In this document: one piece after another, positions 19,413 through 33,542 of the stretch
Layout of the letters: every line of letters begins with the position of its first letter
Position numbering within the stretch: the stretch's first letter is position 1
Source of the DNA: an uncultured Rhodobacterales bacterium
GTDB taxonomy: Bacteria; Pseudomonadota; Alphaproteobacteria; Rhodobacterales; Rhodobacteraceae
NCBI GenBank assembly: GCA_965368915.1
Contig: CBDUOT010000001.1
Coordinates: 672-64,671 of the forward strand
DNA length: 64,000 bases
Direction: 5' to 3'
The notes under the pieces: model-generated
What the model was told of the DNA's origin: nothing
Databases searched by the model: none
What the model saw: only the letters and a program-made list of their open reading frames with translations
Position numbers and translations under genes: made by a program

Positions 19413-20360
19413 GTGGGCAGCTACATATTCAAGCGACTGATCTCGGCCGTGCCCGTTTTGCTCGGTATCACGATCATCGTCTTCCTGATCATGGCTATGA
19501 TCCCGGGCGATCCGGCCACCGCGATCCTCGGCAGCTACGCGACGCCGGAAAACGTCGAGAAGCTGAACCGCGATCTCGGGCTCGATAAGCCTCTGGTTCA
19601 GCGCTACTTCATCTGGCTCGGCAACATGCTTACCGGTGACTTCGGGCGATCATTCTCGCTCAACCGACCGGTTCTGGACGAGGTGCTGGAGCGCTTCAAC
19701 GCGACGCTCATTCTTGCTGGCGTGTCCTTCGTTCTCTGCGCGGTTCTGGGCATTCTTGCCGGCGTCGTGTCGGCTGCGCGGCAATACGGGCTGGCCGACA
19801 AGGTGATTACCTTCACGGTTCTCATCGGCATCTCGGTACCGTCCTTTTTCCTCGGCATGATGATGATCCTCCTCTTCGCCGTGAACCTGCGCTGGCTGCC
19901 TGTCTCGGGCATGTACGCGATATACGGTGGGGGGGATTTGCCGGACCTTCTTTACCACCTGATAATGCCCGCGCTCGCGCTGTCCGCCGTGGCCACCGGG
20001 GTCATCGCGCGCCTCTCGCGCTCCGCGATGCTGGAGGTGCTCCGGCAGGACTACATCCGCACGGCGCGCGCCAAGGGCGTTCCGGAACGGCGGGTGATCA
20101 TGGGTCACGCCCTTCGTGCCGCCATGGTCTCGATCATTCCGATTCTGGGCATCCAGGCGGGCTTTGTCCTGTCGGGCGCGGTCTACATCGAGATCGTATT
20201 CCAGTGGCCCGGCGTGGGCCGCATGCTTGTCGATGCAATCCTCAAGCGTGACATCCTGCTGGTTCAGGGCGGCGTGGTCCTCGTCGCGGCCTGCTACGTG
20301 ATGTTCAACATCGCAGTCGATGTCGCCCAAAGCCTTCTCGACCCAAGGATCAAGACGTGA
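19413..20360 (+). CDS. ABC transporter permease (DppB/OppB-like)
   Basis: A GTG 19413 start gives (M)GSYIFKRLISAVPVLLGITIIVFLIM, the canonical DppB N-terminus. The EAA-loop region is YIRTARAKGVPERRVIMGHALR. TTG 19374 is the alternative start. Confidence 0.85.
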   Translation: MGSYIFKRLISAVPVLLGITIIVFLIMAMIPGDPATAILGSYATPENVEKLNRDLGLDKPLVQRYFIWLGNMLTGDFGRSFSLNRPVLDEVLERFNATLILAGVSFVLCAVLGILAGVVSAARQYGLADKVITFTVLIGISVPSFFLGMMMILLFAVNLRWLPVSGMYAIYGGGDLPDLLYHLIMPALALSAVATGVIARLSRSAMLEVLRQDYIRTARAKGVPERRVIMGHALRAAMVSIIPILGIQAGFVLSGAVYIEIVFQWPGVGRMLVDAILKRDILLVQGGVVLVAACYVMFNIAVDVAQSLLDPRIKT

Positions 20361-22240
20361 GCGGGTTCCTGAAGCTGCTGTTCCGCAACCGGCTGGCCGC
20401 GATGGGGGCCGTCGTTCTGGCGTTCGTCCTTGTCGCAGCGATCATCGCACCGCTCTTGCCGTTGCAGGCGCCAAACATCACCTCGACAGGAGATCGTTTC
20501 ATACGACCCTTTAGCGAGGGGCACATCCTTGGCACCGATCATCTGGGCCGCGACCTGCTGTCACGTTTGTTGCATGGAACGCGGCTGTCGCTTGCCATCG
20601 GCATCGCAGCCGCTTTGATCGCGGGCACGATCGGCTCGGCGATCGGCATCATCGCCGGCTATTTCGGGGGCCGGACAGACAACCTGATCATGCGCGGCGT
20701 CGACATGCTGATGGCCTTTCCCTACATCCTGCTCGCTCTCGCCATCGTTGCAGCACTCGGGCCGGGCTTGATGAACGCTTTGGTCGCCGTCGCCGCCGTC
20801 AATATCCCGTTCTTCGCGCGCAACATCCGCGGCGTTACCGTTGGCCTCGCCGGGCGTGAGTTCATCGACGCGGCGCGGCTGTCGGGAATGGGAAACACCC
20901 GCATCATTCTGTTCGAGCTTTTGCCGAATGTCCTGCCGGTCATCGTCATCGCGATGTCGACCACGGTTGGTTGGATGATCCTTGAGACGGCGGGGCTTTC
21001 GTTCCTCGGCCTCGGCTCTCAACCTCCGCAAGCCGATCTCGGCTCGATGCTGGGCGAGGCGCGTTCGGCGCTGATCACCTCGCCACATACATCGATCGTG
21101 CCGGGCGTCATGATCTTCCTGATCGTGATGAGCATTAATCTTCTGGGCGACGGCGTGCGCGATGCGCTCGACCCGCGCTTGCGGTCTGGCGCGCTGAGCC
21201 GACCGCGCGCGACAACGCTTGTCGATCGTAAAGGCGATGTTCCCGGGGCCACCGACGATCTTCTGGCCATCCAGAGCCTGAAGACCGAGTTTCGCGTTGG
21301 CGAACGCATCTACAAGGCCGTCGGCGGCGTCAGTTTGGCGGTTAAGCCCGGTGAGTGCCTCGGCGTGATCGGCGAGTCGGGTTCAGGCAAGTCCGTCACA
21401 GCACTTTCCGTGATGGGCCTTGTCGCTTCGCCGCCCGGTGTCATCACCGGCGGTGCCGTGCGCTTCGAAGGCGAGGACCTGATCGGCGCGCCCTATGCGA
21501 CCCTGCGGCAGAAGCGCGGCAACCGCGTCGCTTACATCTTCCAGGATCCGCTCTCGACACTGCACCCGCTCTACCGCGTGGGTGACCAACTCATCGAGGC
21601 GATCCAATCTCATGAGAGCGTGAGCAAGGATAGGGCGCGCGCCCGTGCGGTCGAATTGCTGCAGGCCGTGCGCATCCCGAATGCAGAAAGCCGAATTGGG
21701 AACTTTCCGCATGAAATGTCTGGAGGGATGCGGCAGCGGGTCGGCATCGCGATGGCGCTCGCCAACGATCCCGACGTGATCATCGCGGACGAACCGACAA
21801 CCGCGCTCGATGTGACGGTACAGGCGCAGATTCTCGCGCTCCTCGACGATCTCCGGCGCGACCGGGGTCTCGCCATCATCTTCATCACGCATGACTTCGG
21901 TGTCGTGGCCCAACTGTGCGACCGAGTGGCGGTTATGTATGCAGGCCGGATCGTGGAAGAAGGGCCTACCAAGGCGGTGCTCGCCGCGCCAGCCCATCCC
22001 TACACCAAGCGCCTGATCGCCTGCGTGCCTGAATTGGGTCAAGGAAGACGAAAACTGGCAGCGATCCCCGGTATGCCGCCGGCGGTCGATGATCTGCCCG
22101 AAGGCTGTGCCTTCGCACCACGCTGCGACAAGGCGAGAGATCCCTGTCGCGTGGGAGAGGTTGCCCTGACCGCCAGCGGATCGCGTGCGGTGCGCTGTCA
22201 CTTCCCCGAGGAGGGTATCCATGCACGCTCTGCGGGTTGA
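20357..22240 (+). CDS. Fused ABC transporter permease (DppC-like) and ATP-binding protein (DppD-like)
   Basis: Single 627-aa ORF. Residues 1-~285 are a DppC-type permease ending in the usual DALDPRLR. A ~25-aa in-frame linker follows, then an ABC ATPase with Walker A GESGSGKS, signature MSGGMRQRV and Walker B VIIADEPTTALD. The GTG start overlaps the preceding stop. Confidence 0.85.
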   Translation: MSGFLKLLFRNRLAAMGAVVLAFVLVAAIIAPLLPLQAPNITSTGDRFIRPFSEGHILGTDHLGRDLLSRLLHGTRLSLAIGIAAALIAGTIGSAIGIIAGYFGGRTDNLIMRGVDMLMAFPYILLALAIVAALGPGLMNALVAVAAVNIPFFARNIRGVTVGLAGREFIDAARLSGMGNTRIILFELLPNVLPVIVIAMSTTVGWMILETAGLSFLGLGSQPPQADLGSMLGEARSALITSPHTSIVPGVMIFLIVMSINLLGDGVRDALDPRLRSGALSRPRATTLVDRKGDVPGATDDLLAIQSLKTEFRVGERIYKAVGGVSLAVKPGECLGVIGESGSGKSVTALSVMGLVASPPGVITGGAVRFEGEDLIGAPYATLRQKRGNRVAYIFQDPLSTLHPLYRVGDQLIEAIQSHESVSKDRARARAVELLQAVRIPNAESRIGNFPHEMSGGMRQRVGIAMALANDPDVIIADEPTTALDVTVQAQILALLDDLRRDRGLAIIFITHDFGVVAQLCDRVAVMYAGRIVEEGPTKAVLAAPAHPYTKRLIACVPELGQGRRKLAAIPGMPPAVDDLPEGCAFAPRCDKARDPCRVGEVALTASGSRAVRCHFPEEGIHARSAG

Positions 22241-23177: not shown

Positions 23178-23910
23178 ATCGCGCTCGAGCCGCCCGGTTC
23201 AGGTCGCCGAAGCCATCAAGCGCTGGGTGGTCGAACACGGATTGCAGGCGGGTGACCGTTTGCCGAGCGAGCCGGAACTGATCACACGTTTCGGTATGTC
23301 CAAGGGCACGATTCGCGAGGCGATGCGGCTTCTGGAGGCGCAGGGTTTGATCACCACGCGGACGGGACCGCGCGGCGGCAGTTTCGTCCATGAAGTGTCC
23401 AAGGAGCGCGCCCGCGCACTTCTGGGCAACTACTTCTACTTCAAGAACCTGACCATAGCCGACATCTACCAACTGCGCCGCATTCTCGAACCCGAGGTCG
23501 CCGCCTCTCTCGCCGGGCGCCTCAGTGATGCGGCGCTCGACGAACTCGAAACCAACATTGCTACCTATTCGGAACCTTCGCAGACACTCGAGGAGGAGCG
23601 CGACTACCATGTCCGTTCGCTTCGGTTCCATGGCTTGCTTGCCTCGCACTCGGAGAATGCGATGCTGGCCTTCCTGATCGATTTCATCGTCAGCATGCTC
23701 GCTGACCTCACGGTCTATCGCAGACTGTACTCGCCCCCGAATGTGGAACTTTGGGAACGCGGGCGCGACCACCAGGAGCGGCTCGTGCAGGCTCTGCGCG
23801 AAGGCGACGCGGATGCCGCCCGAACGATCATGCTGTCCCATATGCAGATCGCGCAGAAGCACATGGAAGGTCAGGAAGCCCAGATGCTGCGCGGGTTCAT
23901 CACCGAATGA
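23137..23910 (+). CDS. GntR-family transcriptional regulator, FadR/FCD subfamily
   Basis: Winged HTH LPSEPELITRFGMSKGTIREAMRLLEAQGLITTRTGPRGGSFV, followed by an all-helical FCD-like C-terminal domain. The start is uncertain (ATG 23137 or TTG 23146). The track ORF from 22873 overlaps the ATPase gene out of frame. Confidence 0.8.
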   Translation: MTSLPPATTRSKDESRSSRPVQVAEAIKRWVVEHGLQAGDRLPSEPELITRFGMSKGTIREAMRLLEAQGLITTRTGPRGGSFVHEVSKERARALLGNYFYFKNLTIADIYQLRRILEPEVAASLAGRLSDAALDELETNIATYSEPSQTLEEERDYHVRSLRFHGLLASHSENAMLAFLIDFIVSMLADLTVYRRLYSPPNVELWERGRDHQERLVQALREGDADAARTIMLSHMQIAQKHMEGQEAQMLRGFITE

Positions 23911-24151
23911 AGTCGGCGACGTATTGATCTGTCGGGGGGCACGATTCATTTCGCTCCCCGGCCCGGTTGAAGAAGTGGCTTCGCTTCTCGCCATGCGAGG
24001 TTCTCGGTTCACCAAACTCATCTAAATGGCTGCGGCGCATCTATCCGCGCCTCACAATTGACAGGTGAGAACCGGGTATCCACTATGACTGGATTGATCT
24101 CTCAACGGAAAAAGCGCGGCAATTTCGCGCCAGTACCAAGGTGAGGGGAAT

Positions 24152-24922
24152 ATGCGCGAACAACGACGCTTTTGTTTAACGAGGATTTTGTTTTCGCTTC
24201 TGGTTGCACAGATCAGTTTCCCGGTTTCGGCTGCATTGGCGCAGTCCACTACAGATGCGGACATGGAAACCGCATTGAAACTTGCCTCTCTGCTGCGTTC
24301 GGCCCGGACTGTCATCGCGTCGAACCAGGACCTGATCAACGATCCGGCCGGCGGCGACAAGCGGCTGACCGGCGACCGTGTTCTCGCGGAGGCGACTGAA
24401 TCCTATTTGGCGGCGAACGGAACGAAACCACTTCATGATGGTCAGGATGAGCGCGAAGCGCGGCTTATCTCTGCACAGATGGCCGCGATAAGCGAAGTGA
24501 TGGCCGCCAACCAGGCGACAATCAACCAAGATGGAGTGGGCTTCAAAGGCTTTGTACCCGCGGTTTTCGGGCGGCTCGTGAACGAACGTTTTGCCGGACT
24601 TGTCGGAGATGAGGCGGTGATCAAGGTCACAGCGCCACCAGAACTGGTCCGCAACCGCAAGGCCCGCCCTGACGAATGGGAAACCGGGGTAATCCGTGCC
24701 GATCTTTCCGCGCCTGACTGGCCCGAGGGCCAGGTTTTCGCGGCCGAAGCAGAACTGAACGGACGGCCCGCCTACCGAATTCTGGTCCCGGAATATTACA
24801 GCGAAGGATGCCTTGCCTGCCACGGCGAACCGGCAGGCGAGATCGACGTCACGGGCTACCCGAAGGAAGGCGGTCGGCTTGGCGATCTCGGCGGGGTCAT
24901 CAGCATAAGCTTGTTTCGCTGA
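24152..24922 (+). CDS. Secreted DUF3365-like protein with a single c-type heme-binding motif (Tll0287-like putative sensor)
   Basis: 256 aa. Signal peptide ...LLVAQISFPVSAALAQ. A single CxxCH motif CLACH is encoded at 24809-24823, near the C-terminus, as in DUF3365 heme-c PAS-like proteins. A GAGGGG Shine-Dalgarno precedes the ATG. Confidence 0.65.
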   Translation: MREQRRFCLTRILFSLLVAQISFPVSAALAQSTTDADMETALKLASLLRSARTVIASNQDLINDPAGGDKRLTGDRVLAEATESYLAANGTKPLHDGQDEREARLISAQMAAISEVMAANQATINQDGVGFKGFVPAVFGRLVNERFAGLVGDEAVIKVTAPPELVRNRKARPDEWETGVIRADLSAPDWPEGQVFAAEAELNGRPAYRILVPEYYSEGCLACHGEPAGEIDVTGYPKEGGRLGDLGGVISISLFR

Positions 24923-24987
24923 GATGGTCGCCACGGGCGACATATTCGCAGTGTATGTGAGCGTCGCGCCGCAGCCGGGGAAAACGA

Positions 24988-27900
24988 ATGGCTAGGATCT
25001 CGATCCTCGCGCGGCTCGTCTTCCTTTCCGCAGTGCTACTCGCGTTCCTCATCGCGACCAATGCGCTTTTGTCATCGCGACTTTCGCGTAATGCCGAGGC
25101 GATTTCCGAAGGTGCCTCTGCAATCGGGGTTCTTACGCACGCCCACGCCGCGAGCACCCATTTCGGGGAACTGAAGTATTGGCTGTCGGATCTGTCCGTC
25201 AGCCTCCTCATGCGCTCCGAGCAGAACGCGCTGACCGCGCGCGAGGCACTGGAGGCCGAACTCGCCGTTCTTGAGCCAGTCGCATCCGATCATGTCGCGG
25301 TGATCCGTACCGAGATCGACGGGCTGCTGGAACAATCCTTCCTTGCTGTCGATGCCTATACCGAGGATCAGCGGGTCCTCGGCAATTCGCTGGTCGCGAA
25401 GGGACAGCAGCATATTCGTCGTGTCGATGCCGAGCTTGGCGAACTGGTGGCCGAGCTGGAGGCCGCAGCAGTCGCCAAGAGCAATGCCGCCCATTCAGAA
25501 GCGGCCCAAGCGGTCAGGCTTTCAACCGGCATCGTCATCGCGGCAGGGCTTGTCGGGCTTTTGCTGACGCTGTTGGTCGTCGGTTCCATCACTTCGCCTC
25601 TCAGACGGCTCTTGGCCGCGATGAAAGAGATCACCGGGGGCAACCTTGCGGCCGAATTGCCAAAGCCCGGCCATGACGAGATCGGCGCGATGACCCGGAC
25701 GCTCGGCCTCTTCCGTGACAGTCTTGCCGAACGCGAACGCCTGGCGGCGGCCCGCGAAGAAGCGGACCGCGAGATCAAGCGGCTTCAGGTGCAACTGACC
25801 GAGGCGATCGAGGCGATCAGCGAGGGCTTCGCGCTCTTTGATGCCGAGGACCGGCTGGTCATCTGCAATGAACGTTACAAGCAAATGTATGCCAAGATCG
25901 GCTTTGACATTCGCCCCGGATGCACCTTCACCGAAATTTCCGAGCACGTGGCAAATTCAGGAATCATAGATGGTGCCACCGCAGGATGGGCCGAGAACCG
26001 CATCCGTCAGCACCGCAATCCCGAAGGTCCGTTCGAGCAGAAGCGCAGCAACGGCACCTGGATGAAAATCAGCGAACAGCCCACCGAAGCCGGCGGAATC
26101 GTTGGCGTCTTCACCGATATCACCGAGATGAAGGAGCGTGAGGCAAAGCTGCAGGAACTGGTCGACAGCCTCGCCGAAGCGCGAGATGTGGCGCTGAAGG
26201 CCACGACCGCGAAAAGCCAGTTCCTCGCCAATATGAGCCATGAGATCCGCACGCCGATGAACGGGGTCATCGGGATGAGCAACCTTCTCATGGACACCGA
26301 CCTTTCGCCCGAGCAGATGGACTTCGCCCGCACGATCAACGAAAGCGCCGAAAGCCTGCTGACGGTCATCAACGACATCCTCGACTATTCCAAGGTTGAG
26401 GCAGGCAAGCTGGAACTCGAGCGCGTGGCCTTCAATCTGCGCGATTGCGTCGAGGGTGCGCTGGATCTCGTCGCGATGGCAGCGGCGCGAAAGGGGCTGG
26501 ATCTGGCCTACTACATCGAGCCGGGCGTGCCTGAGACCATCGTCTCGGACGTCACAAGGCTTCGGCAGGTGCTCCTGAACCTCATCAACAACGCGATCAA
26601 GTTCACCGAGAAGGGCGAGGTCGTACTAACCGTCGCGCCCGGGTCGGATGACGTTCCCAAGGGCGAATGCGAACTGCTCTTCGCAGTGCGCGATACCGGA
26701 ATCGGCATTCCCGCCGACCGCAAGGACCGCCTTTTCCAGTCTTTCAGCCAGGTCGATGCGACCACGACGCGGCGATACGGTGGCACAGGCCTCGGCCTCG
26801 CAATCAGTCAACGGCTGGTGAATCTCATGGGCGGACGGATCTGGGTCGAGAGCGAACCCGGCGAGGGTACGACCTTCCGTTTCACGCTCACTGCACCCAA
26901 GGGCGAAACGATCGGAACGGTGAACCTGAACGAAGCGCGACCCGACCTTGAAGGCAAGCGGGTGCTCATCGTCGACGACAATCAGACGAACCGGGTGCTG
27001 TTGACGCGCCAGACCACAAGCTGGGCGATGGAGCCGGTCGCCGTCGAGGTGCCAGAAGAAGCGCTCCGGATGGTGGCCGGGGGCGAGAGGTTCGACGTTG
27101 CGATCCTCGACATGCATATGCCCGGATTGGACGGTGTGGATCTCGCTCAGAAGCTGCGGGGGACCGCGGCAGGGAAGGGCATGCCACTGATCCTCCTGTC
27201 CTCGCTCGGCCAGTCGAACGACCATAGTCCCGGCGAACTTGCCAAGGCGGATTTCGCCGAAGTTCTCGCCAAGCCGGTCAAGCCCTCGCCCCTTCTGAAC
27301 ACGCTCGTCAGTCTCTTCGCAGGCAAGCCAATCCGGGTCATCGACCGGGCGCAACGCAAGAAGCCGACCTTCGACGAGACCTTGGCGGAGCGATTGCCTC
27401 TGCGCATCCTTCTTGCCGACGACCATGTGACGAACCAGAAACTCGGGCGGATGATCCTTAAGCGGCTCGGATACCAATCCGACGTCGCGGGCAATGGCCG
27501 CGAAGTGGTCGAGGCGGTGGCGCGTCAGCCCTACGACGTCGTCCTGATGGATATCGAGATGCCGGAAATGGACGGCATGGAAGCCACGCGCCGGATCATC
27601 GCCGATCATCCCGAGCAAACGCGCCCAAGGATCATCGCGGTCACCGCGAACGCCATGGACGGGGACCGCGAACGGTTTATCGAAGCGGGTATGTGCGACT
27701 ACGTCAGCAAGCCAATTCGCGTCGATGCGCTGGTCAAGGCACTGCAAGCCTGCTCCGACGCGAAAATGAAGGAGACCGAAAAGATGTCCGACGCAACGCG
27801 CGCAACCTTTGATCCCGCGGCTCTCGACACGCTTCTCGACACAATCGGCGGCGACCGGGAAGCCTTGGGCGAACTGATCGAGAGTTTTCTTGAGGAAGGC

Positions 27901-28146
27901 CCGGATCTGATCGCCAAAATCGAAGATGCAGTGCGCAACGGCGATGCAGAGGGCTTGCGTCAGGCCGCACATACAATGAAGTCGAGCGCCGCCGATTTCG
28001 GCGCGCTTGAGCTATCGCATCTGTGCCGCGAGATCGAAGCGAAGGGGCGCGAGGGCGACGTCATCGGCGCGGCAGCGTTGTCCGAGAGCGCGGCCGTGTC
28101 GTTCGGCGCAGCGCGAGAGGAGCTGCAGAAAATGCAGATGCGCTGA
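24988..28146 (+). CDS. Hybrid sensor histidine kinase / response regulator (TM - periplasmic helical domain - TM - HAMP - PAS - HisKA - HATPase_c - REC - REC - Hpt)
   Basis: 1052 aa. Two TM segments flank a ~170-aa helical periplasmic region. HAMP: PLRRLLAAMKEITGGNL...DEIGAMTRTLGLF. PAS: ISEGFALFDAEDRLVICNERY. H-box: SHEIRTPMNGVIGMS. G-boxes: DTGIGIP and GGTGLGLAI. The two receiver domains have acceptor contexts VAILDMHMPGLDG and VVLMDIEMPEMDG. C-terminal Hpt: AAHTMKSSAADFGA. Confidence 0.9.
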   Translation: MARISILARLVFLSAVLLAFLIATNALLSSRLSRNAEAISEGASAIGVLTHAHAASTHFGELKYWLSDLSVSLLMRSEQNALTAREALEAELAVLEPVASDHVAVIRTEIDGLLEQSFLAVDAYTEDQRVLGNSLVAKGQQHIRRVDAELGELVAELEAAAVAKSNAAHSEAAQAVRLSTGIVIAAGLVGLLLTLLVVGSITSPLRRLLAAMKEITGGNLAAELPKPGHDEIGAMTRTLGLFRDSLAERERLAAAREEADREIKRLQVQLTEAIEAISEGFALFDAEDRLVICNERYKQMYAKIGFDIRPGCTFTEISEHVANSGIIDGATAGWAENRIRQHRNPEGPFEQKRSNGTWMKISEQPTEAGGIVGVFTDITEMKEREAKLQELVDSLAEARDVALKATTAKSQFLANMSHEIRTPMNGVIGMSNLLMDTDLSPEQMDFARTINESAESLLTVINDILDYSKVEAGKLELERVAFNLRDCVEGALDLVAMAAARKGLDLAYYIEPGVPETIVSDVTRLRQVLLNLINNAIKFTEKGEVVLTVAPGSDDVPKGECELLFAVRDTGIGIPADRKDRLFQSFSQVDATTTRRYGGTGLGLAISQRLVNLMGGRIWVESEPGEGTTFRFTLTAPKGETIGTVNLNEARPDLEGKRVLIVDDNQTNRVLLTRQTTSWAMEPVAVEVPEEALRMVAGGERFDVAILDMHMPGLDGVDLAQKLRGTAAGKGMPLILLSSLGQSNDHSPGELAKADFAEVLAKPVKPSPLLNTLVSLFAGKPIRVIDRAQRKKPTFDETLAERLPLRILLADDHVTNQKLGRMILKRLGYQSDVAGNGREVVEAVARQPYDVVLMDIEMPEMDGMEATRRIIADHPEQTRPRIIAVTANAMDGDRERFIEAGMCDYVSKPIRVDALVKALQACSDAKMKETEKMSDATRATFDPAALDTLLDTIGGDREALGELIESFLEEGPDLIAKIEDAVRNGDAEGLRQAAHTMKSSAADFGALELSHLCREIEAKGREGDVIGAAALSESAAVSFGAAREELQKMQMR

Positions 28147-28168
28147 AATCAATAAACCGGGGGGGACT

Positions 28169-29719
28169 ATGGCTGAGGCTCAGGGACGTGTGCTTGTGGT
28201 CGACGATCACAAGACAAATCGTATGAAGCTTGCGCTGGCGGTACAAAACCTCGGCCACGGGGTGGAAACCGTGGCGAGCGGGCAGGAATGCCTCGACGCG
28301 CTCAGACGGGACCGGTTCGACGTCGTGCTGCTCGACATCGTCATGCCCGAGATGAACGGCTTTCAGGTTCTTGCCGCGATCAAGGCCGACCCCGCCCTGC
28401 GCGACATCCCCGTAATTGTCATTTCCGCGCTCGAGGATACCGAAGATGCGGTCCGTGCAATCGAACTCGGGGCCGACGACTTCCTGACCAAGGCGTTCAA
28501 CCCGGTTCTGCTGAAGGCGCGCCTTGGCGCAGGGCTCGAACGCAAGCGGTACCGCGACAAGGAACTCGAGTACCTCCACCAGGTTGACCGGCTCGCCGCC
28601 GCCTCAGGAGTCGTTGAAGGCAAGGACTTCGATCCGGCAAGGCTCGGCCTCGACGATATTGCTCGACGAGACGACCAACTCGGCAACCTCGCGCGGGTCT
28701 TCCTGCAGATGGCTGGCGAGGTTTATCGCCGCGAACAGATCCTCCGGCAGCAGATCAGTCTGCTGAAAGGCGGGTTTCTGCTTCTGGTGCTTGGCGCCGC
28801 ATGGGGCCTGGTCCCATCCCTGTCGCGTATCATCATGCTGGACGGGCTGAAGCCCCTCGGCGTGGCGTTCTGGACGATCAGCCTAAGCGCGGTTCTGATG
28901 ATGATGGCGTCCCTCCTGACCGGGCGTTACCCGCACGCGACTGGGCCAGCGATCCGAAGCTACTTGATCCTTGGCCTCATCGGCTGCGTGCTTCCGCAAC
29001 TCTTCCTGTTCTGGGCTGCGGGGAACGTTCCAGCAATGATCATCGCCATCGTGCTCGCCGCCGAAAGTTTCATCGTCTTCATCATCGCCGCCTCGATGGG
29101 GCTTGAGGCACCAAGCCTGAAACGCTTCCTCGGCCTCAGTCTAGGTCTTGCCTGCGTTGCGCTCATCATGGTGCCAGGCAGCGATAATTCGGGAGTAGCC
29201 AGCTGGTTCTGGATACTGGTCACGCTGGCCGTGCCCTTCTGCTACGCGCTGGAAGACATCGTCATAGCCGCCCTGCCCGAAACAGATGCAGACATCTTCG
29301 GCTCCGCCACCGGCATCACCATCGCTGCGGCGCTCACTCTCGCGCCGGTGACTTTCGCAACTGGCTCCTTCATCTCGCCGGCCGAGGCGATCGCGGGATT
29401 CGGCTGGGCCTTCCTCCTCATCGCCGCGCTCAGCGCTTTTTCGACCGTGCTCCTGATCTACGCGATCCGCACCACCGGCGCTGTGTTCGCAAGCCAGGCG
29501 GGCTATTCGATGACCGCGGGTGGCATCCTTTGGAGCGTCCTGCTCTTGAACGAGCAAATGACCCTATGGGTATGGGCGGCGCTCGCGTGCCTCGTTTCGG
29601 GACTCGCGCTGGTGATGCCCAAGCAGATAGATGGCGAGGCTGACGTGGACCAGCGCATGGCGAAAGCCCAGCCCACAGCCCCCAAGGGCGCGCCCGGTTC
29701 GACGGCTCCCGGCGAATGA
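28169..29719 (+). CDS. Response-regulator receiver domain fused to a DMT/EamA-type 10-TM permease
   Basis: ATG 28169 lies 22 nt after the kinase stop and gives 516 aa. Residues 7-120 form a complete REC domain (DD at 12-13, acceptor Asp56 in VVLLDIVMPEMNG, conserved S/T and K in FLTKAF). A helical linker follows with a HAMP-like segment DDQLGNLARVFLQMAGEV. Then come ~300 aa of repeated hydrophobic helices with the two-repeat EamA pattern. The track ORF from 28007 is an out-of-context extension overlapping the kinase gene. Confidence 0.8.
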   Translation: MAEAQGRVLVVDDHKTNRMKLALAVQNLGHGVETVASGQECLDALRRDRFDVVLLDIVMPEMNGFQVLAAIKADPALRDIPVIVISALEDTEDAVRAIELGADDFLTKAFNPVLLKARLGAGLERKRYRDKELEYLHQVDRLAAASGVVEGKDFDPARLGLDDIARRDDQLGNLARVFLQMAGEVYRREQILRQQISLLKGGFLLLVLGAAWGLVPSLSRIIMLDGLKPLGVAFWTISLSAVLMMMASLLTGRYPHATGPAIRSYLILGLIGCVLPQLFLFWAAGNVPAMIIAIVLAAESFIVFIIAASMGLEAPSLKRFLGLSLGLACVALIMVPGSDNSGVASWFWILVTLAVPFCYALEDIVIAALPETDADIFGSATGITIAAALTLAPVTFATGSFISPAEAIAGFGWAFLLIAALSAFSTVLLIYAIRTTGAVFASQAGYSMTAGGILWSVLLLNEQMTLWVWAALACLVSGLALVMPKQIDGEADVDQRMAKAQPTAPKGAPGSTAPGE

Positions 29720-29828
29720 GGACGACGCTCCGACTGGCTGCCTCCGCCGCTGATATTATCTAGCTGCATACTGGTAAGCGCAGCGCCTCGGTAGAGCGGC
29801 GCGCCGTATGAGGACGCCCGAAAGGTTG

Positions 29829-29845
29829 TGCCCAACGATTGGGCA
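29829..29845. promoter_or_regulatory. Palindrome TGCCCAA-CGA-TTGGGCA upstream of the fructosidase/sucrose-type operon
   Basis: Perfect 7-bp arms around a central CGA, about 125 bp upstream of the first gene. It resembles LacI-type operators with a central CG. No cognate regulator is visible nearby. Confidence 0.3.
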
Positions 29846-29922
29846 GATTGCATGACGGACGATGCAGATCCTTTCGACGCGTCATTGCGACAAGCGATCT
29901 GTGGATGGAGCGCCAACGACCC

Positions 29923-29940
29923 ATGCAATCAAAATTGCAT
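29923..29940. promoter_or_regulatory. Palindrome ATGCAAT-CAAA-ATTGCAT upstream of the fructosidase/sucrose-type operon
   Basis: Perfect 7-bp inverted arms, 30 bp upstream of ATG 29970. Confidence 0.3.
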
Positions 29941-29969
29941 TCGCCCGGAAACCGGGACATGCTTGCGTC

Positions 29970-31520
29970 ATGTACGCTTCACACGGCTTTCTGCGCTCGG
30001 ACATTGGTGACGTCGATGTTGTCTTTCACCAAGGCCTTTACCACCTGTTTCACCTCGTCCTTCCAAACCATGATTTCATCGCGCATGCGGTGAGCAAGGA
30101 CGGCATGACGTGGCGGCGCGTCGCAAATGCGCTGTTTGTGGGGGATCCCGGCCAATGGGATGATGACATGCTCTGGACGATGCATGTGACGCCCGACCCA
30201 GAGCGCCCAGGCTCTTGGCGGATGTTCTACACTGGTCTTTCGCGTGCCGAGTATGGACGCGTCCAGCGCATTGGTCTGGCGCGGTCCGACGATCTGTACA
30301 CATGGAAACGCTGCGAGTCCGGCGATTACCCGCTGGAAATCAAAGGTCCCTGGTACGAATCCGATATCGACGAGGGCCGGAAATGGGTCAGTTTCCGCGA
30401 TCCGTTCTTCTATCACGACCCTGTAAGCGGTGACCGGCTGCTCATGGCATCAGCACGCGTGAAGAACGGACCGGTCGTCCGTCGGGGATGCGTTGGCCTC
30501 GCTCGGGAAACCGCGCCTGACCGGTTCGAATTCGCGGCGCCGCTTTACAAACCGGGGCTTTACGATGACGTCGAAGTACCGAACCTCGTTCATCAGGACG
30601 GCCGGTTCTATCTGATCGGATCGATCCGCGAGGATACCAAGGTTCATTACTGGTATGCGGACAAGATCGAGGGCCCCTATCAGAACTTTGCCGACAACGT
30701 GCTATTGCCCAAGGGTAATTACGCGGCAAGGGTTTGCCGAAGCGACGGCCGCTATCTGCTTTTCAACTTCTTCCAGCGCAAGGAAACCATCTATGGCCGC
30801 GAAACCGTGGCTCGGCTGTTGCCGCCACCCAAAGAGCTGGTCACAGACAAGAACGGGCGGTTGCTGCTGAAATCGTTCAAGGGTTTCGATGCCCTCGTTC
30901 ACCATTCTTTCGACATAACGAATCCAGCTGAATTCGATGCCCTGTTCGGCAACTCTCACGCAGCGATTAGCGGCGACGACGGGTCGATCCATGTCGCCTG
31001 CCCAAGCGGGTTCGAGGCGTTTCTTCTGCCGGGCGAGCACGAGGATTTCCGGCTACGCGCAACCGTCAAACTCGAGGGCGTGGGCAAGTGCGGCATGGTC
31101 CTGCGCGTCTCGGAGGAGGGCGACGGCTACTTCCTGTCTCTCGACCTAGTCAAAGGCTACGCGCAGCTAAGACGATGGGGCGCCAATCCGCGTCCCGAGT
31201 TCGAATTCGCTTTCCAGTACGAGACGCTTCAGGCCGGTAACTACGTCGCGCTTGATCCTGCGCACCCCCTACAGATCGAGGTCGTCACTCATGGCGCCTA
31301 TATCGAGTTTTCGATCAACGGTCAGGTCACTCTATCGGTCGTGGACGATACATACAGCGCGGGCCGCGTGGGATTCTACACAGAGTCGGCGCAACTGAAG
31401 CTCGAAAACATCAGCATGGAGTGGCTGCGCCGCCCGGTTGCCGAGGAAGAAGCTGTCTATACAGCGACACGCTCAACCGAAACTCTCGACGTCACGCTGG
31501 ACGAGTCCGCGGCCTCATGA
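29970..31520 (+). CDS. Divergent GH32/GH-J clan beta-fructofuranosidase-like hydrolase with C-terminal beta-sandwich (lectin/DUF1080-like) domain
   Basis: From ATG 29970, the segment LRSDIGDVDVVFHQGLYHLFHL aligns with the GH32 WMNDPNG...YHLFYQ nucleophile block. FRDPFFY matches the RDP motif, and DVEVPNL matches the EC(P) acid/base motif. The C-terminal ~170 aa (KCGMVLR...GRVGFYTESAQLKLENISM) looks like a concanavalin-type sandwich. There is no signal peptide. Confidence 0.6.
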   Translation: MYASHGFLRSDIGDVDVVFHQGLYHLFHLVLPNHDFIAHAVSKDGMTWRRVANALFVGDPGQWDDDMLWTMHVTPDPERPGSWRMFYTGLSRAEYGRVQRIGLARSDDLYTWKRCESGDYPLEIKGPWYESDIDEGRKWVSFRDPFFYHDPVSGDRLLMASARVKNGPVVRRGCVGLARETAPDRFEFAAPLYKPGLYDDVEVPNLVHQDGRFYLIGSIREDTKVHYWYADKIEGPYQNFADNVLLPKGNYAARVCRSDGRYLLFNFFQRKETIYGRETVARLLPPPKELVTDKNGRLLLKSFKGFDALVHHSFDITNPAEFDALFGNSHAAISGDDGSIHVACPSGFEAFLLPGEHEDFRLRATVKLEGVGKCGMVLRVSEEGDGYFLSLDLVKGYAQLRRWGANPRPEFEFAFQYETLQAGNYVALDPAHPLQIEVVTHGAYIEFSINGQVTLSVVDDTYSAGRVGFYTESAQLKLENISMEWLRRPVAEEEAVYTATRSTETLDVTLDESAAS

Positions 31521-32245
31521 TGACCGGTGCCCGGAATTCTCCGTGGCTTCTGGTTAGTGATATCGACGATACACTGACAGGCGATGACGCTGCTTTATCT
31601 CGCCTGGCCGAAGCAGTGATCCGGAACCGAGATCGCCTCTGTTTCGCGGTGAACTCCTCCCGGCCCTCCGGCAGTGTGGCCGAAACATTGCGCGACGATT
31701 TTCCGCCTAATCTGGTCCCTGACGCGATCATCACCGCGCTCGGAACCGAAATAACCGTCGGCGGCAAACGACTCCCGCCGCATTTTTCCGACTGGCCCGG
31801 GAACGACGTGTTCGAGGCACTCGCAGCGCTGGGCCACCGACCTCACGCCGCGGAGTTTCAGACCGCTTACAAGGTGAGCTTCGCGGTGCCGCCCGATGCG
31901 CAGCCGGAAGCCCGGCAGGCTCTCGCGCCCTTCGAGTGTCAGATCATCGCGTCTGGGTCGGACGATTTCGACGTGATCCCGCCGGGCGCCGGAAAAGGCG
32001 CCGCCACGGTGTTTCTGGCCGGTGAACTTGGCTATGATCTCGAACTGGTGGTAGCCGCTGGCGATAGCGGCAATGATGTAGCGATGATGAAGGCCGTTCC
32101 TAACCGGATTGTTGTCGGCAACGCGCGCTCCGAACTGGTTGCCGCGCTGCCGCCGGGGACGTTCTTTCATGCCCGTGATCACCATGCGGCTGGGGTATTG
32201 GAGGGACTTGTGGAATTCGGCATCATCCCGCCCCCCGACTACTGA
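31517..32245 (+). CDS. HAD-IIB phosphatase, sucrose-6F-phosphate phosphohydrolase-like (SPP family)
   Basis: ATG 31517 overlaps the preceding stop (ATGA). HAD motif I LLVSDIDDTLTG and motif IV AAGDSGNDVAMM (GDSGND is characteristic of SPP-type enzymes). 242 aa. Confidence 0.7.
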   Translation: MMTGARNSPWLLVSDIDDTLTGDDAALSRLAEAVIRNRDRLCFAVNSSRPSGSVAETLRDDFPPNLVPDAIITALGTEITVGGKRLPPHFSDWPGNDVFEALAALGHRPHAAEFQTAYKVSFAVPPDAQPEARQALAPFECQIIASGSDDFDVIPPGAGKGAATVFLAGELGYDLELVVAAGDSGNDVAMMKAVPNRIVVGNARSELVAALPPGTFFHARDHHAAGVLEGLVEFGIIPPPDY

Positions 32246-32267
32246 AACGAAACAAGCAGGAACACCC

Positions 32268-33542
32268 ATGGCAGGCAGCATCTCCGGTTCACTCATGATG
32301 ATCTCGCTGCACGGCTATGTTGCCGGCACACCCGAACTCGGCAAGCCGGATACAGGCGGGCAGGTCGTTTTCGTGATGGAGCTCGCCAAGCGTTTCGCCC
32401 GGCTCGGCTACAATGTCGATGTCATGACGCGGCGTTTCGAGGATCAGCCGGCTGAGGACGTCATCAACGAAAACCTTCGTGTCCGCCGCATTCCGTTCGG
32501 TGGCCCCGACTTCATCCGCAAGGAAGACATGCACGACTGGTACGGCGACTTCGTGTCGAACGTGCTTGCCGCGGTCCGGCGTCACGGGCTGCGCTACGAT
32601 GTGGTGAACAGCCATTACTGGGATGCCGGGGTGGCGGGCCAGAAGATCGCCGAGGAACTCCAGATTCCGCATATCCACACGCCGCATTCGCTTGGCTGGT
32701 GGAAAGCGAAGGACATGAAAAGCCTCGGCGAAGGCAAGAAGGCCAACTACCGGTTCGAAGAACGCATCCAGAAGGAATTCGTGCTTTACCGGAATTGCGA
32801 CCATATCATCGTCACCTCCGAGCAGCAGGCGCAGATCATCGAGGATCACTACGACCTGCCGAGTGAGCACATCACGATGATCCCGCCCGGGATCGACGAA
32901 CAACGCTTTACCGCGATCACGCCTATGCAGTTGGACGAGGTCCGCGCAAGGCTCGGCATGTCGCAGAACGACGTCTACGTTGTCGGTCGCGCGGCGACGA
33001 ACAAGGGCTACGACCTGATGATCCAAGCCCTGCCCCACCTGCGCGAGTTGCAGCCTGAGGCACGGCTGGTGCTTGCAGCGGGCGCGAATTCTACCGAGGA
33101 CAAGAAGCTCGTTGAAACATGGAAGAAGCAGGCCGCCGAGCTGGGCGTCTCGGATGCCATTTCCTGGCGCGGCTACATTTCCGACGACGATCTTGCCGAC
33201 TACTACCGCGCGCCGGGCGTCTTCGCCTTACCCTCGCGCTATGAGCCTTTCGGGATGACCGCGGTCGAGGCGATGTGCTGTGGCACGCCCACGGTGCTGA
33301 CCACCCGCGGCGGACTTCATGAGCAGATCGAGTTCGGGCGCCATGCGCTGATCGCAGATCCCACCCGGCCACGAGAGTTCGCGGCGATGGTCAACATGCC
33401 GATGCAGCATTCCTGGCTGCGCGAGAAGCTCATGGTCGAGGGCGCCCGATTTGCCCGCCGCACCTTCGGCTGGACCGGCATTGCACGCCGCACCCTTGCG
33501 GTTTTCGACGCCTTTCTGGGGCGGTACGACACGGCATCCTGA
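32268..33542 (+). CDS. GT4 glycosyltransferase, sucrose-phosphate synthase-like (could equally be a mannosylfructose-phosphate synthase-type enzyme)
   Basis: ATG 32268 gives 424 aa. MMISLHGYVAGTPELGKPDTGGQVVFVMELAKRFARLGYNVDV is the SPS/SuSy-type N-terminal block. The GT4 EX7E motif is PSRYEPFGMTAVEAMCCGTP. Confidence 0.7.
   Translation: MAGSISGSLMMISLHGYVAGTPELGKPDTGGQVVFVMELAKRFARLGYNVDVMTRRFEDQPAEDVINENLRVRRIPFGGPDFIRKEDMHDWYGDFVSNVLAAVRRHGLRYDVVNSHYWDAGVAGQKIAEELQIPHIHTPHSLGWWKAKDMKSLGEGKKANYRFEERIQKEFVLYRNCDHIIVTSEQQAQIIEDHYDLPSEHITMIPPGIDEQRFTAITPMQLDEVRARLGMSQNDVYVVGRAATNKGYDLMIQALPHLRELQPEARLVLAAGANSTEDKKLVETWKKQAAELGVSDAISWRGYISDDDLADYYRAPGVFALPSRYEPFGMTAVEAMCCGTPTVLTTRGGLHEQIEFGRHALIADPTRPREFAAMVNMPMQHSWLREKLMVEGARFARRTFGWTGIARRTLAVFDAFLGRYDTAS

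What the first reader, a model, noticed from the sequence alone, without database searches (positions are those of the whole stretch)
24152..29719. Three-gene module: periplasmic c-type-heme DUF3365 protein, multi-step hybrid kinase, and a receiver-domain-gated DMT transporter
Three co-directional genes (gaps 65 and 22 nt) encode the following.

- A secreted protein with a single CxxCH heme-c site, of the DUF3365/Tll0287-like putative redox or gas sensor type.
- A 1052-aa hybrid kinase with a helical periplasmic domain, HAMP, PAS, catalytic core, two receivers and an Hpt domain.
- A protein whose only non-receiver part is a 10-TM EamA/DMT permease.

No DNA-binding, GGDEF or other classical output is present. 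The simplest reading is therefore a phosphorelay: periplasmic heme signal, to kinase, to Hpt, to receiver. Its end point would be direct post-translational control of a membrane transporter rather than transcription. I am not aware of a characterised system of this kind.
Basis: partly seen in the sequence, partly recalled or inferred. Interest (0 to 1): 0.8.

Follow-up and report, generated by a model that had tools for sequence, protein, structure and literature searches.

The report
Phosphorelay ending in a receiver-fused membrane transporter
Three adjacent genes encode a periplasmic heme sensor protein, a multi-step sensor kinase and a membrane transporter carrying its own phospho-receiver domain; kinase and transporter stay linked across many Alphaproteobacteria, which suggests an uncharacterised signalling pathway that switches a transporter directly instead of switching genes.

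Summary
Genes lie at 24152-24922, 24988-28146 and 28169-29719, with gaps of 65 and 22 nt.

- **Gene 1** is a secreted Cache_heme (DUF3365) protein with one CLACH site.
- **Gene 2** is a hybrid kinase: HAMP-PAS-HisKA-HATPase-REC-REC-Hpt.
- **Gene 3** is a canonical receiver fused to a 10-TM EamA/DMT fold.

Three things were missed.

- A conserved, divergent HAMP-like two-helix linker joins REC helix alpha5 to TM1.
- The conserved core is hybrid kinase/Hpt plus REC-linker-DMT. Of 63 such genes, 45 have an Hpt ORF within 500 nt. In some contigs the whole set is fused into one ~1370-aa protein.
- The periplasmic partner is swappable: Cache_heme in 10 loci, a solute-binding-like protein in about 7, and none where the kinase is a large PAS/GAF type.

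No DNA-binding regulator is conserved in the module. The best reading is that phosphotransfer from Hpt to D56 alters transporter activity through the linker. This is inferred, not shown, and the substrate is unknown.

Rivals: the DMT domain acts as a co-sensor, the receiver is a phosphate sink, or a distant regulator is the real output.

Seven literature searches found no characterised member; RefSeq annotates a Mesorhizobium loti homologue only as "response regulator". I rate it a new variant of a known kind, interest 0.65.

The parts
24152..24922 (+). Gene 1: secreted stand-alone Cache_heme (DUF3365/Tll0287-like) protein, 256 aa
   Evidence: Pfam PF11845, E 3.4e-16, 60.4 bits. Orthologues sit in the same position in 9 other loci.
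24152..24241 (+). Signal peptide of gene 1 (aa 1-30, AxA cleavage ALA|Q)
   Evidence: Read directly from the translation. No signal-peptide predictor was available.
24809..24823 (+). CLACH c-type heme attachment motif (C220, C223, H224)
   Evidence: Invariant in 9 orthologues. No other conserved Cys, His or Met.
24988..28146 (+). Gene 2: membrane hybrid histidine kinase with Hpt, 1052 aa
   Evidence: Pfam. Best NCBIfam models are TorS, BarA and ArcB, all below their cut-offs.
24988..25575 (+). TM1, periplasmic domain of about 145 aa (four helices) and TM2 of the kinase
   Evidence: Single-sequence AF2 model, pLDDT 70. Weak NarQ-like fold match. This domain is found only in kinases that sit next to a Cache_heme gene.
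25576..25728 (+). HAMP domain of the kinase (aa 197-247)
   Evidence: Pfam PF00672, 45.2 bits.
25807..26142 (+). PAS_7 domain (aa 274-385)
   Evidence: Pfam PF12860, 83.9 bits.
26209..26895 (+). HisKA (H418 at 26239-26241) and HATPase_c catalytic core
   Evidence: Pfam. H-box SHEIRTP.
26956..27312 (+). First receiver domain of the kinase (D708 at 27109-27111)
   Evidence: Pfam reports two Response_reg stretches. phmmer and motifs.
27406..27744 (+). Second receiver domain of the kinase (D855 at 27550-27552)
   Evidence: Pfam aa 807-919. Motif.
27871..28086 (+). Hpt domain (H995 at 27970-27972, motif AHTMKSS)
   Evidence: Pfam PF01627, 52.7 bits. In many relatives this domain is a separate gene of about 120 aa, immediately next to the REC-DMT gene.
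28169..29719 (+). Gene 3: REC, HAMP-like linker and 10-TM DMT protein, 516 aa
   Evidence: Pfam. 584 homologues at E<=1e-10; the 120 listed all carry Response_reg and EamA. AF2 model pLDDT 89.
28190..28522 (+). Receiver domain of gene 3 (phospho-acceptor D56 at 28334-28336)
   Evidence: Pfam aa 8-118. D12, D56 and S86 are invariant; D13 and K108 are kept in >=90% of 87 sequences.
28571..28738 (+). Conserved HAMP-like linker (about aa 135-190): helix continuous with REC alpha5, connector, then helix continuous with TM1
   Evidence: - AF2 secondary structure shows H112-149, a connector, then H170-223.
- Pfam HAMP matches 13 of 87 family members at E<=0.1 (best 9.8e-5), but not the window's own copy.
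- The best PDB match of the linker profile is the NarQ HAMP (E 0.15).
- hhalign against the kinase HAMPs gives P 0.0019.
- Mean pairwise identity is 0.56, against 0.41 for the DMT part.
28760..29623 (+). 10-TM EamA/DMT transporter domain (aa 198-485)
   Evidence: Two EamA repeats. Ten helices in the AF2 model. Foldseek TPT 5y78 and LicB 7paf, TM-scores 0.77 and 0.76. TM1, TM4 and TM9 are the most conserved helices.

Best explanation
This is a self-contained His-Asp-His-Asp phosphorelay whose terminal acceptor is a membrane transporter.

**Proposed steps**
1. The secreted heme-c Cache protein (gene 1) binds its signal in the periplasm, either NO or a redox change. It then modulates the kinase through the kinase's four-helix periplasmic domain. 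Known parallels, recalled from my own knowledge and not checked here, are TorT with TorS and LuxP with LuxQ.
2. The kinase autophosphorylates on H418. It passes the phosphoryl group to an internal receiver (D708 or D855) and on to H995 of its Hpt domain.
3. Hpt phosphorylates D56 of the REC-linker-DMT protein.
4. The receiver's alpha5 helix runs straight into a HAMP-like two-helix module, and the second helix of that module runs straight into TM1 of the DMT domain. In a dimer, phosphorylation would repack this module and shift the transporter's conformational equilibrium, turning import or export of a still unknown small metabolite on or off. No transcription would be involved.

**Shown here:** domain content, key residues, the continuous helical connection in a confident model, and very strong conserved linkage of Hpt and kinase with REC-DMT.

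**Inferred:** every phosphotransfer step, the interaction between the heme protein and the kinase, dimerisation, any effect on transport, and the substrate.
For: **Domains and residues**
- Domains and catalytic residues are all present and canonical.

**Conserved synteny**
- In all 8 full-length REC-DMT loci from isolate or MAG genomes, a gene-2-like hybrid kinase lies directly upstream.
- Over 58 sequences holding 63 REC-DMT genes, 45 have an Hpt-coding ORF within 500 nt. Of the 23 with at least 4 kb on both sides, 22 have Hpt and a kinase core within 5 kb.
- Flanking genes differ completely between loci, so the unit moves as a module.
- Hpt stays next to REC-DMT even where it is a separate gene, or where no kinase is adjacent (L083, L085, L097; M. 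loti pML2037).

**Fusions**
- Rosetta-stone fusions exist: REC-linker-DMT-PAS-PAS-HisKA-HATPase-REC-REC proteins of about 1370 aa, followed by an Hpt gene (L119-L123, P0138).
- A tandem [REC-linker-DMT]x2 protein fits a dimeric working unit (L132/P0122).

**Absence of another output**
- No DNA-binding or enzymatic regulator is conserved in the module.

**Linker and transporter domain**
- The linker is nearly as conserved as the receiver (0.56 against 0.60). It is HAMP-like by four weak but concordant tests.
- The AF2 model (pLDDT 89) shows alpha5 continuous with helix 112-149 and helix 170-223 continuous with TM1.
- The DMT domain keeps a complete fold and conserved TM1, TM4 and TM9.

**Input partner**
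- The Cache_heme gene co-occurs 10 of 10 times with kinases that carry the gene-2-type periplasmic domain. Where the kinase has a different (CHASE5-like) sensor domain, another secreted protein takes its place.
- Cache_heme domains bind c-type heme, and a signalling-coupled member binds NO with slow off-rates (bioRxiv 10.64898/2026.02.01.703092).
Against: - There is no biochemical or genetic evidence for any step.
- The window's own linker does not reach any Pfam HAMP score. All HAMP evidence is sub-threshold (best 22.4 bits against a cut-off of 25).
- The fused REC-DMT-PAS-kinase proteins place the DMT domain where kinases normally carry membrane sensor domains, so signal could flow from DMT to kinase.
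- A few REC-DMT genes have no Hpt or kinase within several kb (L101, L132, and second paralogues in L004 and L131).
- The published stand-alone Cache_heme protein behaved as redox-like rather than as a ligand sensor.
- An orphan OmpR-type regulator lies 22 kb away at 51526-52242. Other regulators elsewhere in the genome cannot be excluded as targets.
- The substrate is unknown.
Confidence: 0.55

Rival explanations
1. The DMT domain is a co-sensor or 'transceptor'. It reports substrate occupancy or flux to the kinase by physical contact, or by covalent linkage in the fused forms. The receiver provides feedback on the sensor. The true output would then be another regulator, or the loop itself.
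For: - Fusions REC-DMT-PAS-PAS-HisKA-HATPase-REC-REC and REC-DMT-PAS-GAF-GAF put the DMT N-terminal to cytoplasmic sensor or kinase modules, as in membrane sensor domains.
- In L117 and L118 a soluble PAS/GAF kinase gene overlaps the end of the REC-DMT gene.
- Transporter-like domains fused to kinases (the CbrA type) and transporter co-sensors (DctA with DcuS) are established precedents (own knowledge).
Against: - In the window, the kinase already has its own periplasmic sensor domain and a dedicated periplasmic partner.
- No second output regulator is conserved in any version of the module.
- The receiver and linker sit on the input side of TM1 and are the most conserved parts. That fits regulation of the DMT better than reporting by it.
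Confidence: 0.2
2. The REC-DMT protein is a membrane-anchored phosphate sink or scaffold. It drains or localises the relay, and the DMT part serves mainly as an anchor.
For: Extra receiver proteins that act as sinks are known in Hpt-type and chemotaxis relays (own knowledge). Several loci carry two or three REC-DMT paralogues (L004, L106, L128, L131, L132).
Against: - An anchor would not need a complete 10-TM DMT fold with invariant residues in TM1, TM4, TM5, TM6 and TM9, nor a conserved HAMP-like coupler.
- No alternative output is conserved nearby.
Confidence: 0.1
3. The kinase signals mainly to a distant DNA-binding regulator, for example the orphan OmpR-type protein at 51526-52242. The adjacency to REC-DMT would then reflect co-regulation rather than phosphotransfer.
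For: An orphan OmpR-family regulator without an adjacent kinase is present in the window. Hybrid kinases with Hpt often serve unlinked regulators (own knowledge: BarA with UvrY, ArcB with ArcA).
Against: - The linkage of Hpt to REC-DMT survives gene-order changes, Hpt splitting and full fusion across about 40 clusters at 50% identity.
- The orphan regulator is 22 kb away, between unrelated genes (MarR-type and deacetylase-like).
Confidence: 0.1

Closest known systems
LacS lactose carrier of Streptococcus thermophilus, with a fused IIA domain phosphorylated by HPr(His~P)
   Same: A secondary transporter carries a fused cytoplasmic phospho-acceptor domain. A phosphotransfer protein phosphorylates that domain and transport kinetics change. 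LacS works as a dimer (PMC8154325).
   Different: - The regulatory domain is a PTS IIA domain phosphorylated on His, not a receiver phosphorylated on Asp.
- It is C-terminal, the carrier is of a different superfamily, and there is no HAMP-like coupler.
- The signal is PTS sugar status, not a sensor kinase.
TorT/TorS and LuxP/LuxQ: a periplasmic binding protein plus a hybrid kinase (own knowledge)
   Same: A separate periplasmic ligand-binding protein is encoded next to a membrane hybrid kinase and is thought to act on its periplasmic domain. TorS is the best-scoring NCBIfam model for gene 2 (508.6 bits), and TorS has an Hpt domain.
   Different: - Gene 2 scores below the TorS cut-off (676.5).
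- The partner here is a heme-c Cache protein, not a solute-binding protein.
- The outputs of TorS and LuxQ are DNA-binding regulators (TorR, and LuxO through LuxU).
Cache_heme-HAMP receptor with its Ser/Thr kinase in Pseudomonas azotoformans (bioRxiv 10.64898/2026.05.25.727664)
   Same: A periplasmic c-type-heme Cache domain without an enzymatic output of its own signals to a kinase encoded in the same operon. NO binding changes phosphorylation.
   Different: - There the Cache_heme domain is membrane-anchored with its own HAMP.
- The partner is a Ser/Thr kinase bound in the cytoplasm.
- Here the protein is soluble in the periplasm and the partner is a histidine kinase.
H-NOX/HnoK and NosP/NahK NO-responsive hybrid kinase relays (own knowledge)
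   Same: A stand-alone heme sensor protein is encoded next to a hybrid kinase that feeds an Hpt relay. Gene 2 hits the NahK-type model near_NosP_CTERM at 187.8 bits, below its cut-off of 400.
   Different: - Those sensors are cytoplasmic and bind heme b.
- Their outputs are c-di-GMP enzymes or transcription factors.
- No transporter is involved.
Response regulators with enzymatic or protein-binding outputs (PleD, CheB, CheY)
   Same: A receiver domain controls a non-transcriptional output after translation. The receiver of gene 3 is closest to the PleD receiver by sequence and structure.
   Different: The output here is an integral-membrane transporter, reached through a HAMP-like linker. No such output class turned up in the literature searches.
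CbrA/CrbS-type kinases with an N-terminal SLC5 transporter-like domain (own knowledge)
   Same: A transporter fold is covalently joined to two-component signalling domains. The fused relatives (L119-L123, P0138) have the same order, transporter followed by PAS and kinase.
   Different: The transporter superfamily differs (SSS, not DMT). There is no receiver or HAMP-like module in front of the transporter. In the window, transporter and kinase are separate proteins.

Membership tests
Cache_heme (sCache_heme; DUF3365/Tll0287-like, PF11845) | Match to the family profile above the curated cut-off | tested here: met
   60.4 bits against a cut-off of 24.1, E 3.4e-16, aa 100-253.
Cache_heme (sCache_heme; DUF3365/Tll0287-like, PF11845) | Strictly conserved CXXCH motif near the C-terminal end of the domain | tested here: met
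   CLACH at aa 220-224, invariant in 9 orthologues. The motif is conserved in 99% of the family according to bioRxiv 10.64898/2026.02.01.703092.
Cache_heme (sCache_heme; DUF3365/Tll0287-like, PF11845) | Extracytoplasmic location, needed for c-type heme attachment | tested here: met
   N-terminal signal peptide with an AxA site, read from the sequence. No predictor was run.
Cache_heme (sCache_heme; DUF3365/Tll0287-like, PF11845) | Covalently bound heme c | not testable with these tools
   Needs heme staining or spectroscopy of the expressed protein.
Tll0287 / P. putida-type stand-alone 'redox' Cache_heme subgroup | Axial Cys ligand (Cys/His ligation) | tested here: not met
   The mature protein has no Cys outside CXXCH, and none is conserved in 9 orthologues. 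phmmer against the PDB does not retrieve Tll0287.
Hybrid histidine kinase with Hpt (multi-step phosphorelay) | HisKA with the H-box His, HATPase_c, receiver(s) with the acceptor Asp, and Hpt with its His | tested here: met
   All Pfam domains are above their cut-offs. H418, D708, D855 and H995 sit in canonical motifs.
TorS (TIGR02956), BarA, ArcB equivalogs | Score above the curated equivalog cut-off | tested here: not met
   TorS 508.6 against 676.5; BarA 477.6 against 890; ArcB 388.2 against 838. Gene 2 shares the architecture but is not an orthologue.
Response regulator receiver (PF00072) | Acidic pocket DD, phospho-acceptor D, T/S and K | tested here: met
   99.5 bits. D12, D56 and S86 are invariant; D13 and K108 are kept in >=90% of 87 sequences.
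HAMP domain (PF00672), for the gene 3 linker | Match to the HAMP profile above the cut-off | tested here: not met
   The window's copy gives no hit. Among homologues, 13 of 87 hit at E<=0.1 (best 9.8e-5); the best linker-only score is 22.4 bits against a cut-off of 25. HAMP is the only family besides REC and EamA that recurs at that position.
HAMP domain (PF00672), for the gene 3 linker | Helix, connector of about 14-20 residues, helix, with the conserved Gly/Pro and DExG-like connector motifs | tested here: inconclusive
   - AF2 shows helix 112-149, connector 150-169 and helix 170-223.
- The consensus is ...LExGxFxPxxLGL...RxDxLGxLARVFxxMA....
- The profile's best PDB hit is the NarQ HAMP 177-227, E 0.15.
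- hhalign gives P 0.0019.
HAMP domain (PF00672), for the gene 3 linker | Parallel four-helix bundle in a homodimer | not testable with these tools
   Only monomer prediction was available. The natural tandem [REC-linker-DMT]x2 fusion (L132/P0122) is indirect support.
DMT superfamily, EamA-type (PF00892) | Two EamA repeats giving 10 TM helices | tested here: met
   Two EamA stretches, 69.9 bits against 28.2. Ten TM helices in the model.
DMT superfamily, EamA-type (PF00892) | DMT fold | tested here: met
   Foldseek: TPT 5y78 TM-score 0.77 over 305 columns; LicB 7paf 0.76.
DMT superfamily, EamA-type (PF00892) | Transport activity and a defined substrate | not testable with these tools
   There are only weak hints. 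One is the generic model TIGR00950, E 2.7e-4. The other is a related DMT fused to a PLP Orn/DAP/Arg decarboxylase, P0139.
PTS-IIA-regulated carriers (LacS type) | Fused IIA(Glc)-like domain phosphorylated by HPr | tested here: not met
   No PTS domain is detected. The resemblance is functional only.

The most novel reading that the evidence does not exclude
REC-HAMP-DMT proteins are a so far unrecognised class of response regulator whose output is the transporter itself. A HAMP-like module would work 'inside-out': it carries a cytoplasmic phosphorylation signal into TM1 of a DMT carrier, so that a sensor kinase gates metabolite import or export within seconds and without gene expression. Because the same output is wired to interchangeable inputs (heme-c Cache protein, solute-binding-like protein, PAS/GAF kinases), the family would be a general signal-gated valve in Alphaproteobacteria.
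Probability: 0.45. Interest if true: 0.8.

Novelty: new variant of a known kind. Interest (0 to 1): 0.65.

Why it matters
Two-component systems are taught as sensor-to-transcription devices, with a few enzymatic or motor-binding outputs. A conserved family in which the terminal receiver is built into a transporter would add direct, fast control of membrane transport to the output repertoire.

It would also give a natural case of a HAMP-like module passing a signal from the cytoplasm into a membrane domain, the reverse of its usual direction.

In addition, the module gives the newly described periplasmic heme-c Cache sensors a defined downstream pathway. And it links an orphan DMT subfamily to a physiological signal, which may help to find its substrate.

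The system is experimentally accessible. Homologous operons exist in cultured Defluviimonas (Albidovulum) aquaemixtae and on plasmid pML2037 of Mesorhizobium loti NZP2037.

Tried and rejected
1. **Genome-collection scan with the full-length alignment.** The tool picked receiver motifs, so 72 of 80 loci were unrelated response regulators. Only L001-L008 were usable.
2. **First metagenome scan with a 16-sequence linker+DMT alignment.** A 7-sequence alignment worked.
3. **Substrate hints.**
   - The sucrose-synthesis genes just downstream in the window are not next to the module in L081 or L082.
   - Neighbourhoods of the nearest receiver-less DMTs showed nothing consistent: SDR, GST, aldolase, PrpD and others.
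   - No decarboxylase lies near them.
   - A sequence search of the DMT part against the PDB found nothing.
4. **Cache_heme subtype.** phmmer of gene 1 against the PDB did not retrieve Tll0287 or the Geobacter domains, so the axial ligand was judged from family conservation only.
5. **The alternative periplasmic partner.** It has no Pfam or PDB match. Its only hit is a weak one to the EhuB solute-binding model (E 2.9e-4), so 'solute-binding-like' is tentative.
6. **Promoter and terminator scan of 23700-30100.** It gave nothing above the shuffled expectation, so the operon structure rests on gaps and synteny only.
7. **Literature.** Seven searches and several reads found no paper on receiver-DMT or receiver-transporter fusions. 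The Galperin response-regulator census papers I tried by PMC id were not held, so a passing mention in them cannot be excluded.
8. **Tat export of gene 1.** I considered it because of the RR in its n-region and rejected it, since orthologues lack the RR.


Full report
**1. What is in the sequence**

Three co-directional ORFs lie at 24152-24922, 24988-28146 and 28169-29719, with gaps of 65 and 22 nt. Each is preceded by a purine-rich Shine-Dalgarno sequence. The mechanical ORF for the third gene starts at a TTG at 28007, inside gene 2. However, the ATG at 28169 follows GGGGGGGAC, and all homologues begin there.

- Gene 1: Tll0287-like/DUF3365.
- Gene 2: HAMP, PAS_7, HisKA, HATPase_c, two Response_reg and Hpt.
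- Gene 3: Response_reg plus two EamA repeats.

Gene 1 has a signal peptide (AxA cleavage after A30) and one CLACH motif at aa 220-224. Gene 2 has H418, D708, D855 and H995 in canonical motifs.

A single-sequence AF2 model of gene 2's first 260 residues (pLDDT 70) is all-helical, with four helices between TM1 and TM2. Its best fold matches, though not significant, are NarQ sensor-TM-HAMP fragments and other four-helix periplasmic kinase sensors.

Neighbouring genes:
- Upstream are a peptide ABC transporter and a GntR/FCD regulator.
- Downstream are a GH32-like protein, a sucrose-phosphate phosphatase and a GT4 sucrose-phosphate-synthase-like protein.

The closest named relative of gene 3 is from Defluviimonas (Albidovulum) aquaemixtae (86% identity). 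The window is therefore from a Paracoccaceae/Rhodobacterales genome.

**2. Anatomy of the third protein**

At E<=1e-10 there are 584 homologues. The 120 listed are all about 500-520 aa, apart from a few shorter ones (374-498 aa) and one of 542 aa, and all carry Response_reg and EamA.

In an 87-sequence alignment going down to 38% identity, D12, D56 and S86 are invariant, and D13 and K108 are kept in at least 90%. The receiver should therefore be phosphorylatable.

An AF2 model built on this alignment is confident (pLDDT 89, pTM 0.73). It shows, in order:
- a CheY-like fold;
- alpha5 extended into one long helix (112-149);
- a 20-residue connector;
- a second long helix (170-223) that becomes TM1;
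- nine further TM helices.

Foldseek matches the membrane part to the triose-phosphate translocator (5y78, TM-score 0.77) and to the choline importer LicB (7paf, 0.76).

Its mean pairwise identity (0.56) is close to that of the receiver (0.60) and well above the DMT domain (0.41). Its consensus...LExGxFxPxxLGL...RxDxLGxLARVFxxMA..., looks like a HAMP domain.

Tests of that idea are individually weak but agree:
- Pfam HAMP matches isolated linkers of two homologues (E 1.5e-4 at 22.4 bits, and E 0.011).
- It matches 13 of 87 full-length members at E<=0.1, making HAMP the only recurring family besides REC and EamA.
- The best PDB hit of a linker profile is the NarQ HAMP domain (E 0.15).
- hhalign against the HAMP domains of the associated kinases gives P 0.0019 over the correct segment.
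- The window's own copy does not score.

I therefore call it HAMP-like and leave membership open.

**3. Comparative genomics**

The genome-collection scan was swamped by receiver motifs. Even so, its eight true loci (Hoeflea, Mesorhizobium, Brevirhabdus, Tateyamaria and others) all have a gene-2-like hybrid kinase directly upstream.

Look-ups of individual homologues gave these arrangements:
- Tll0287-like + hybrid kinase + REC-EamA at 86% and 62% identity, in completely different neighbourhoods (L081, L082).
- At 44% identity, a different secreted protein + hybrid kinase without Hpt + a separate 119-aa Hpt gene + REC-EamA (L083, L084).
- At 40% identity, REC-EamA followed by a lone Hpt gene (L085).

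A metagenome scan seeded only with linker+DMT motifs added 80 loci. I mapped window-derived domains onto all ORFs with phmmer. This gave 63 REC-DMT genes in 58 sequences; a few loci are near-duplicates of each other.
- 45 of the 63 have an Hpt ORF within 500 nt.
- 23 of the 63 have at least 4 kb on both sides. Of these, 19 have Hpt within 500 nt and 22 have both Hpt and a kinase core within 5 kb.

The input side varies:
- A Cache_heme gene is present in 10 loci. In each it accompanies a kinase with the gene-2-type periplasmic domain.
- A secreted protein of about 250 aa is present in about 7 loci. It has a weak EhuB-like match (E 2.9e-4) and accompanies kinases with a CHASE5-like sensor (24.7 bits).
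- There is no partner where the kinase is a 1200-1500-aa multi-domain protein (L002, L095, L109, L112, L116, L122).

Gene order can also be REC-DMT, kinase, Hpt (L117, L118).

In L119-L123 everything except Hpt is one polypeptide of about 1370 aa: REC-linker-DMT-PAS-PAS-HisKA-HATPase-REC-REC (P0138). Another relative is REC-DMT-PAS-GAF-GAF (P0140). L132/P0122 is a tandem [REC-linker-DMT]x2.

An exhaustive search of 1.84 billion representatives with the linker+DMT part finds 75 representatives at E<=1e-30. About 40 of those listed are REC-linker-DMT proteins. The next relatives are plain DMTs of about 300 aa at 30-37% identity.

On plasmid pML2037 of Mesorhizobium loti NZP2037, RefSeq annotates the trio as 'GAF domain-containing protein', 'Hpt domain-containing protein' and 'response regulator'.

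**4. Interpretation**

The conserved unit is hybrid kinase + Hpt + REC-linker-DMT, with a swappable periplasmic input. No other regulator is conserved in it.

The structural model suggests how. The receiver is rigidly connected through a HAMP-like module to TM1, so repacking on phosphorylation, probably in a dimer, could bias the carrier's alternating-access cycle. TM1, TM4 and TM9 are the most conserved helices. This fits a preserved substrate site; the role of these helices in DMT substrate binding is from my own knowledge of TPT and YddG structures.

Every biochemical step is inferred.

The fusions also allow a rival in which the DMT domain informs the kinase, as a co-sensor or transceptor. 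A phosphate-sink role and a distant DNA-binding target are less likely but not excluded. One candidate for the latter is the orphan OmpR-type regulator at 51526-52242.

**5. The heme protein**

Two 2026 preprints redefine DUF3365 as Cache_heme. A stand-alone P. putida protein with Cys/His ligation was redox-like. A membrane Cache_heme-HAMP receptor lacking the axial Cys bound NO tightly and regulated an operon-encoded Ser/Thr kinase.

Gene 1 is stand-alone but has no Cys outside CXXCH, and no other conserved Cys, His or Met in nine orthologues. It is also locked to a kinase with a matching periplasmic domain. It therefore does not fit the simple rule 'stand-alone = redox'. I cannot decide between NO and redox sensing.

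**6. Comparison with known systems and novelty**

The closest functional analogue is LacS, a carrier with a fused IIA domain phosphorylated by HPr (PMC8154325). The input side resembles TorT/TorS, LuxP/LuxQ and H-NOX or NosP kinase pairs (own knowledge; NCBIfam scores are below cut-offs).

None of these combines a two-component receiver, a HAMP-like coupler and a transporter. Literature searches found no description of such proteins. The two census papers I tried to open by PMC id were not held.

The parts and the logic are familiar, but the output class and the orientation of the coupler are new. I therefore rate this a new variant of a known kind, with interest 0.65.

Noticed in passing
window 29862-33542 (+): Directly downstream of the module, after a 142-nt gap and on the same strand, lie three genes. 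They are a GH32-like protein, a sucrose-6F-phosphate phosphohydrolase (S6PP) and a GT4 sucrose-phosphate-synthase-like glycosyltransferase. This is a sucrose synthesis and turnover cluster in a Rhodobacterales genome. It is not next to the module in relatives L081 and L082.
   Followed up: partly
window 51526-52242 (+): An orphan OmpR-family response regulator (REC + Trans_reg_C) with no adjacent kinase. It is flanked by a MarR-type regulator (51020-51529) and a histone-deacetylase-like gene (52295-53227). It is a conceivable alternative target of the hybrid kinase.
   Followed up: partly
window 20357-22240 (+): One 627-aa ORF combines an ABC permease domain (BPD_transp_1, OppC_N) with an ABC ATPase (ABC_tran, oligo_HPY). 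This is a fused DppC/DppD-like protein within the peptide ABC transporter operon upstream.
   Followed up: no
L119 7536-11660; L120; L121 949-5061; L123; protein P0138: Natural fusion of the whole system except Hpt into one protein of about 1370 aa: REC-linker-DMT-PAS-PAS-HisKA-HATPase-REC-REC. A separate Hpt gene follows.
   Followed up: yes
L132 6048-9131; protein P0122 (1027 aa): Tandem duplication [REC-linker-DMT]x2 in a single polypeptide, a natural single-chain 'dimer'. No Hpt or kinase lies within the 10-kb contig piece.
   Followed up: partly
L004 9686-18369 (Brevirhabdus MAG); also L106, L128, L131: Several REC-DMT paralogues sit around one kinase/Hpt set: two or three in L004, one of them split or truncated. 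This hints at one relay controlling several transporters.
   Followed up: no
protein P0139 (766 aa): A receiver-less DMT, 37% identical to the window's DMT domain, is fused to a PLP-dependent Orn/DAP/Arg decarboxylase. This is the only, and weak, hint that the subfamily may move basic amino acids or amines.
   Followed up: partly
L083 6078-6815; L084 475-1278; L004 13291-14061; L131 3613-4428: A secreted protein of about 250 aa replaces Cache_heme upstream of the kinase. It has no Pfam or PDB match and only a weak hit to the EhuB solute-binding model (E 2.9e-4). It may be an undescribed periplasmic sensor partner family.
   Followed up: partly
window 37659-39770 (+): Large-subunit catalase with a C-terminal DJ-1/PfpI-like domain, about 8 kb downstream of the module. 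A link to the redox or NO theme is speculative.
   Followed up: no
L166 (Mesorhizobium loti NZP2037 plasmid pML2037, record 320367-326182): A homologous kinase-Hpt-REC-DMT operon lies on a 474-kb plasmid of a cultured model rhizobium. It sits next to plasmid replication and conjugation genes, and the REC-DMT gene is annotated only as 'response regulator'.
   Followed up: partly
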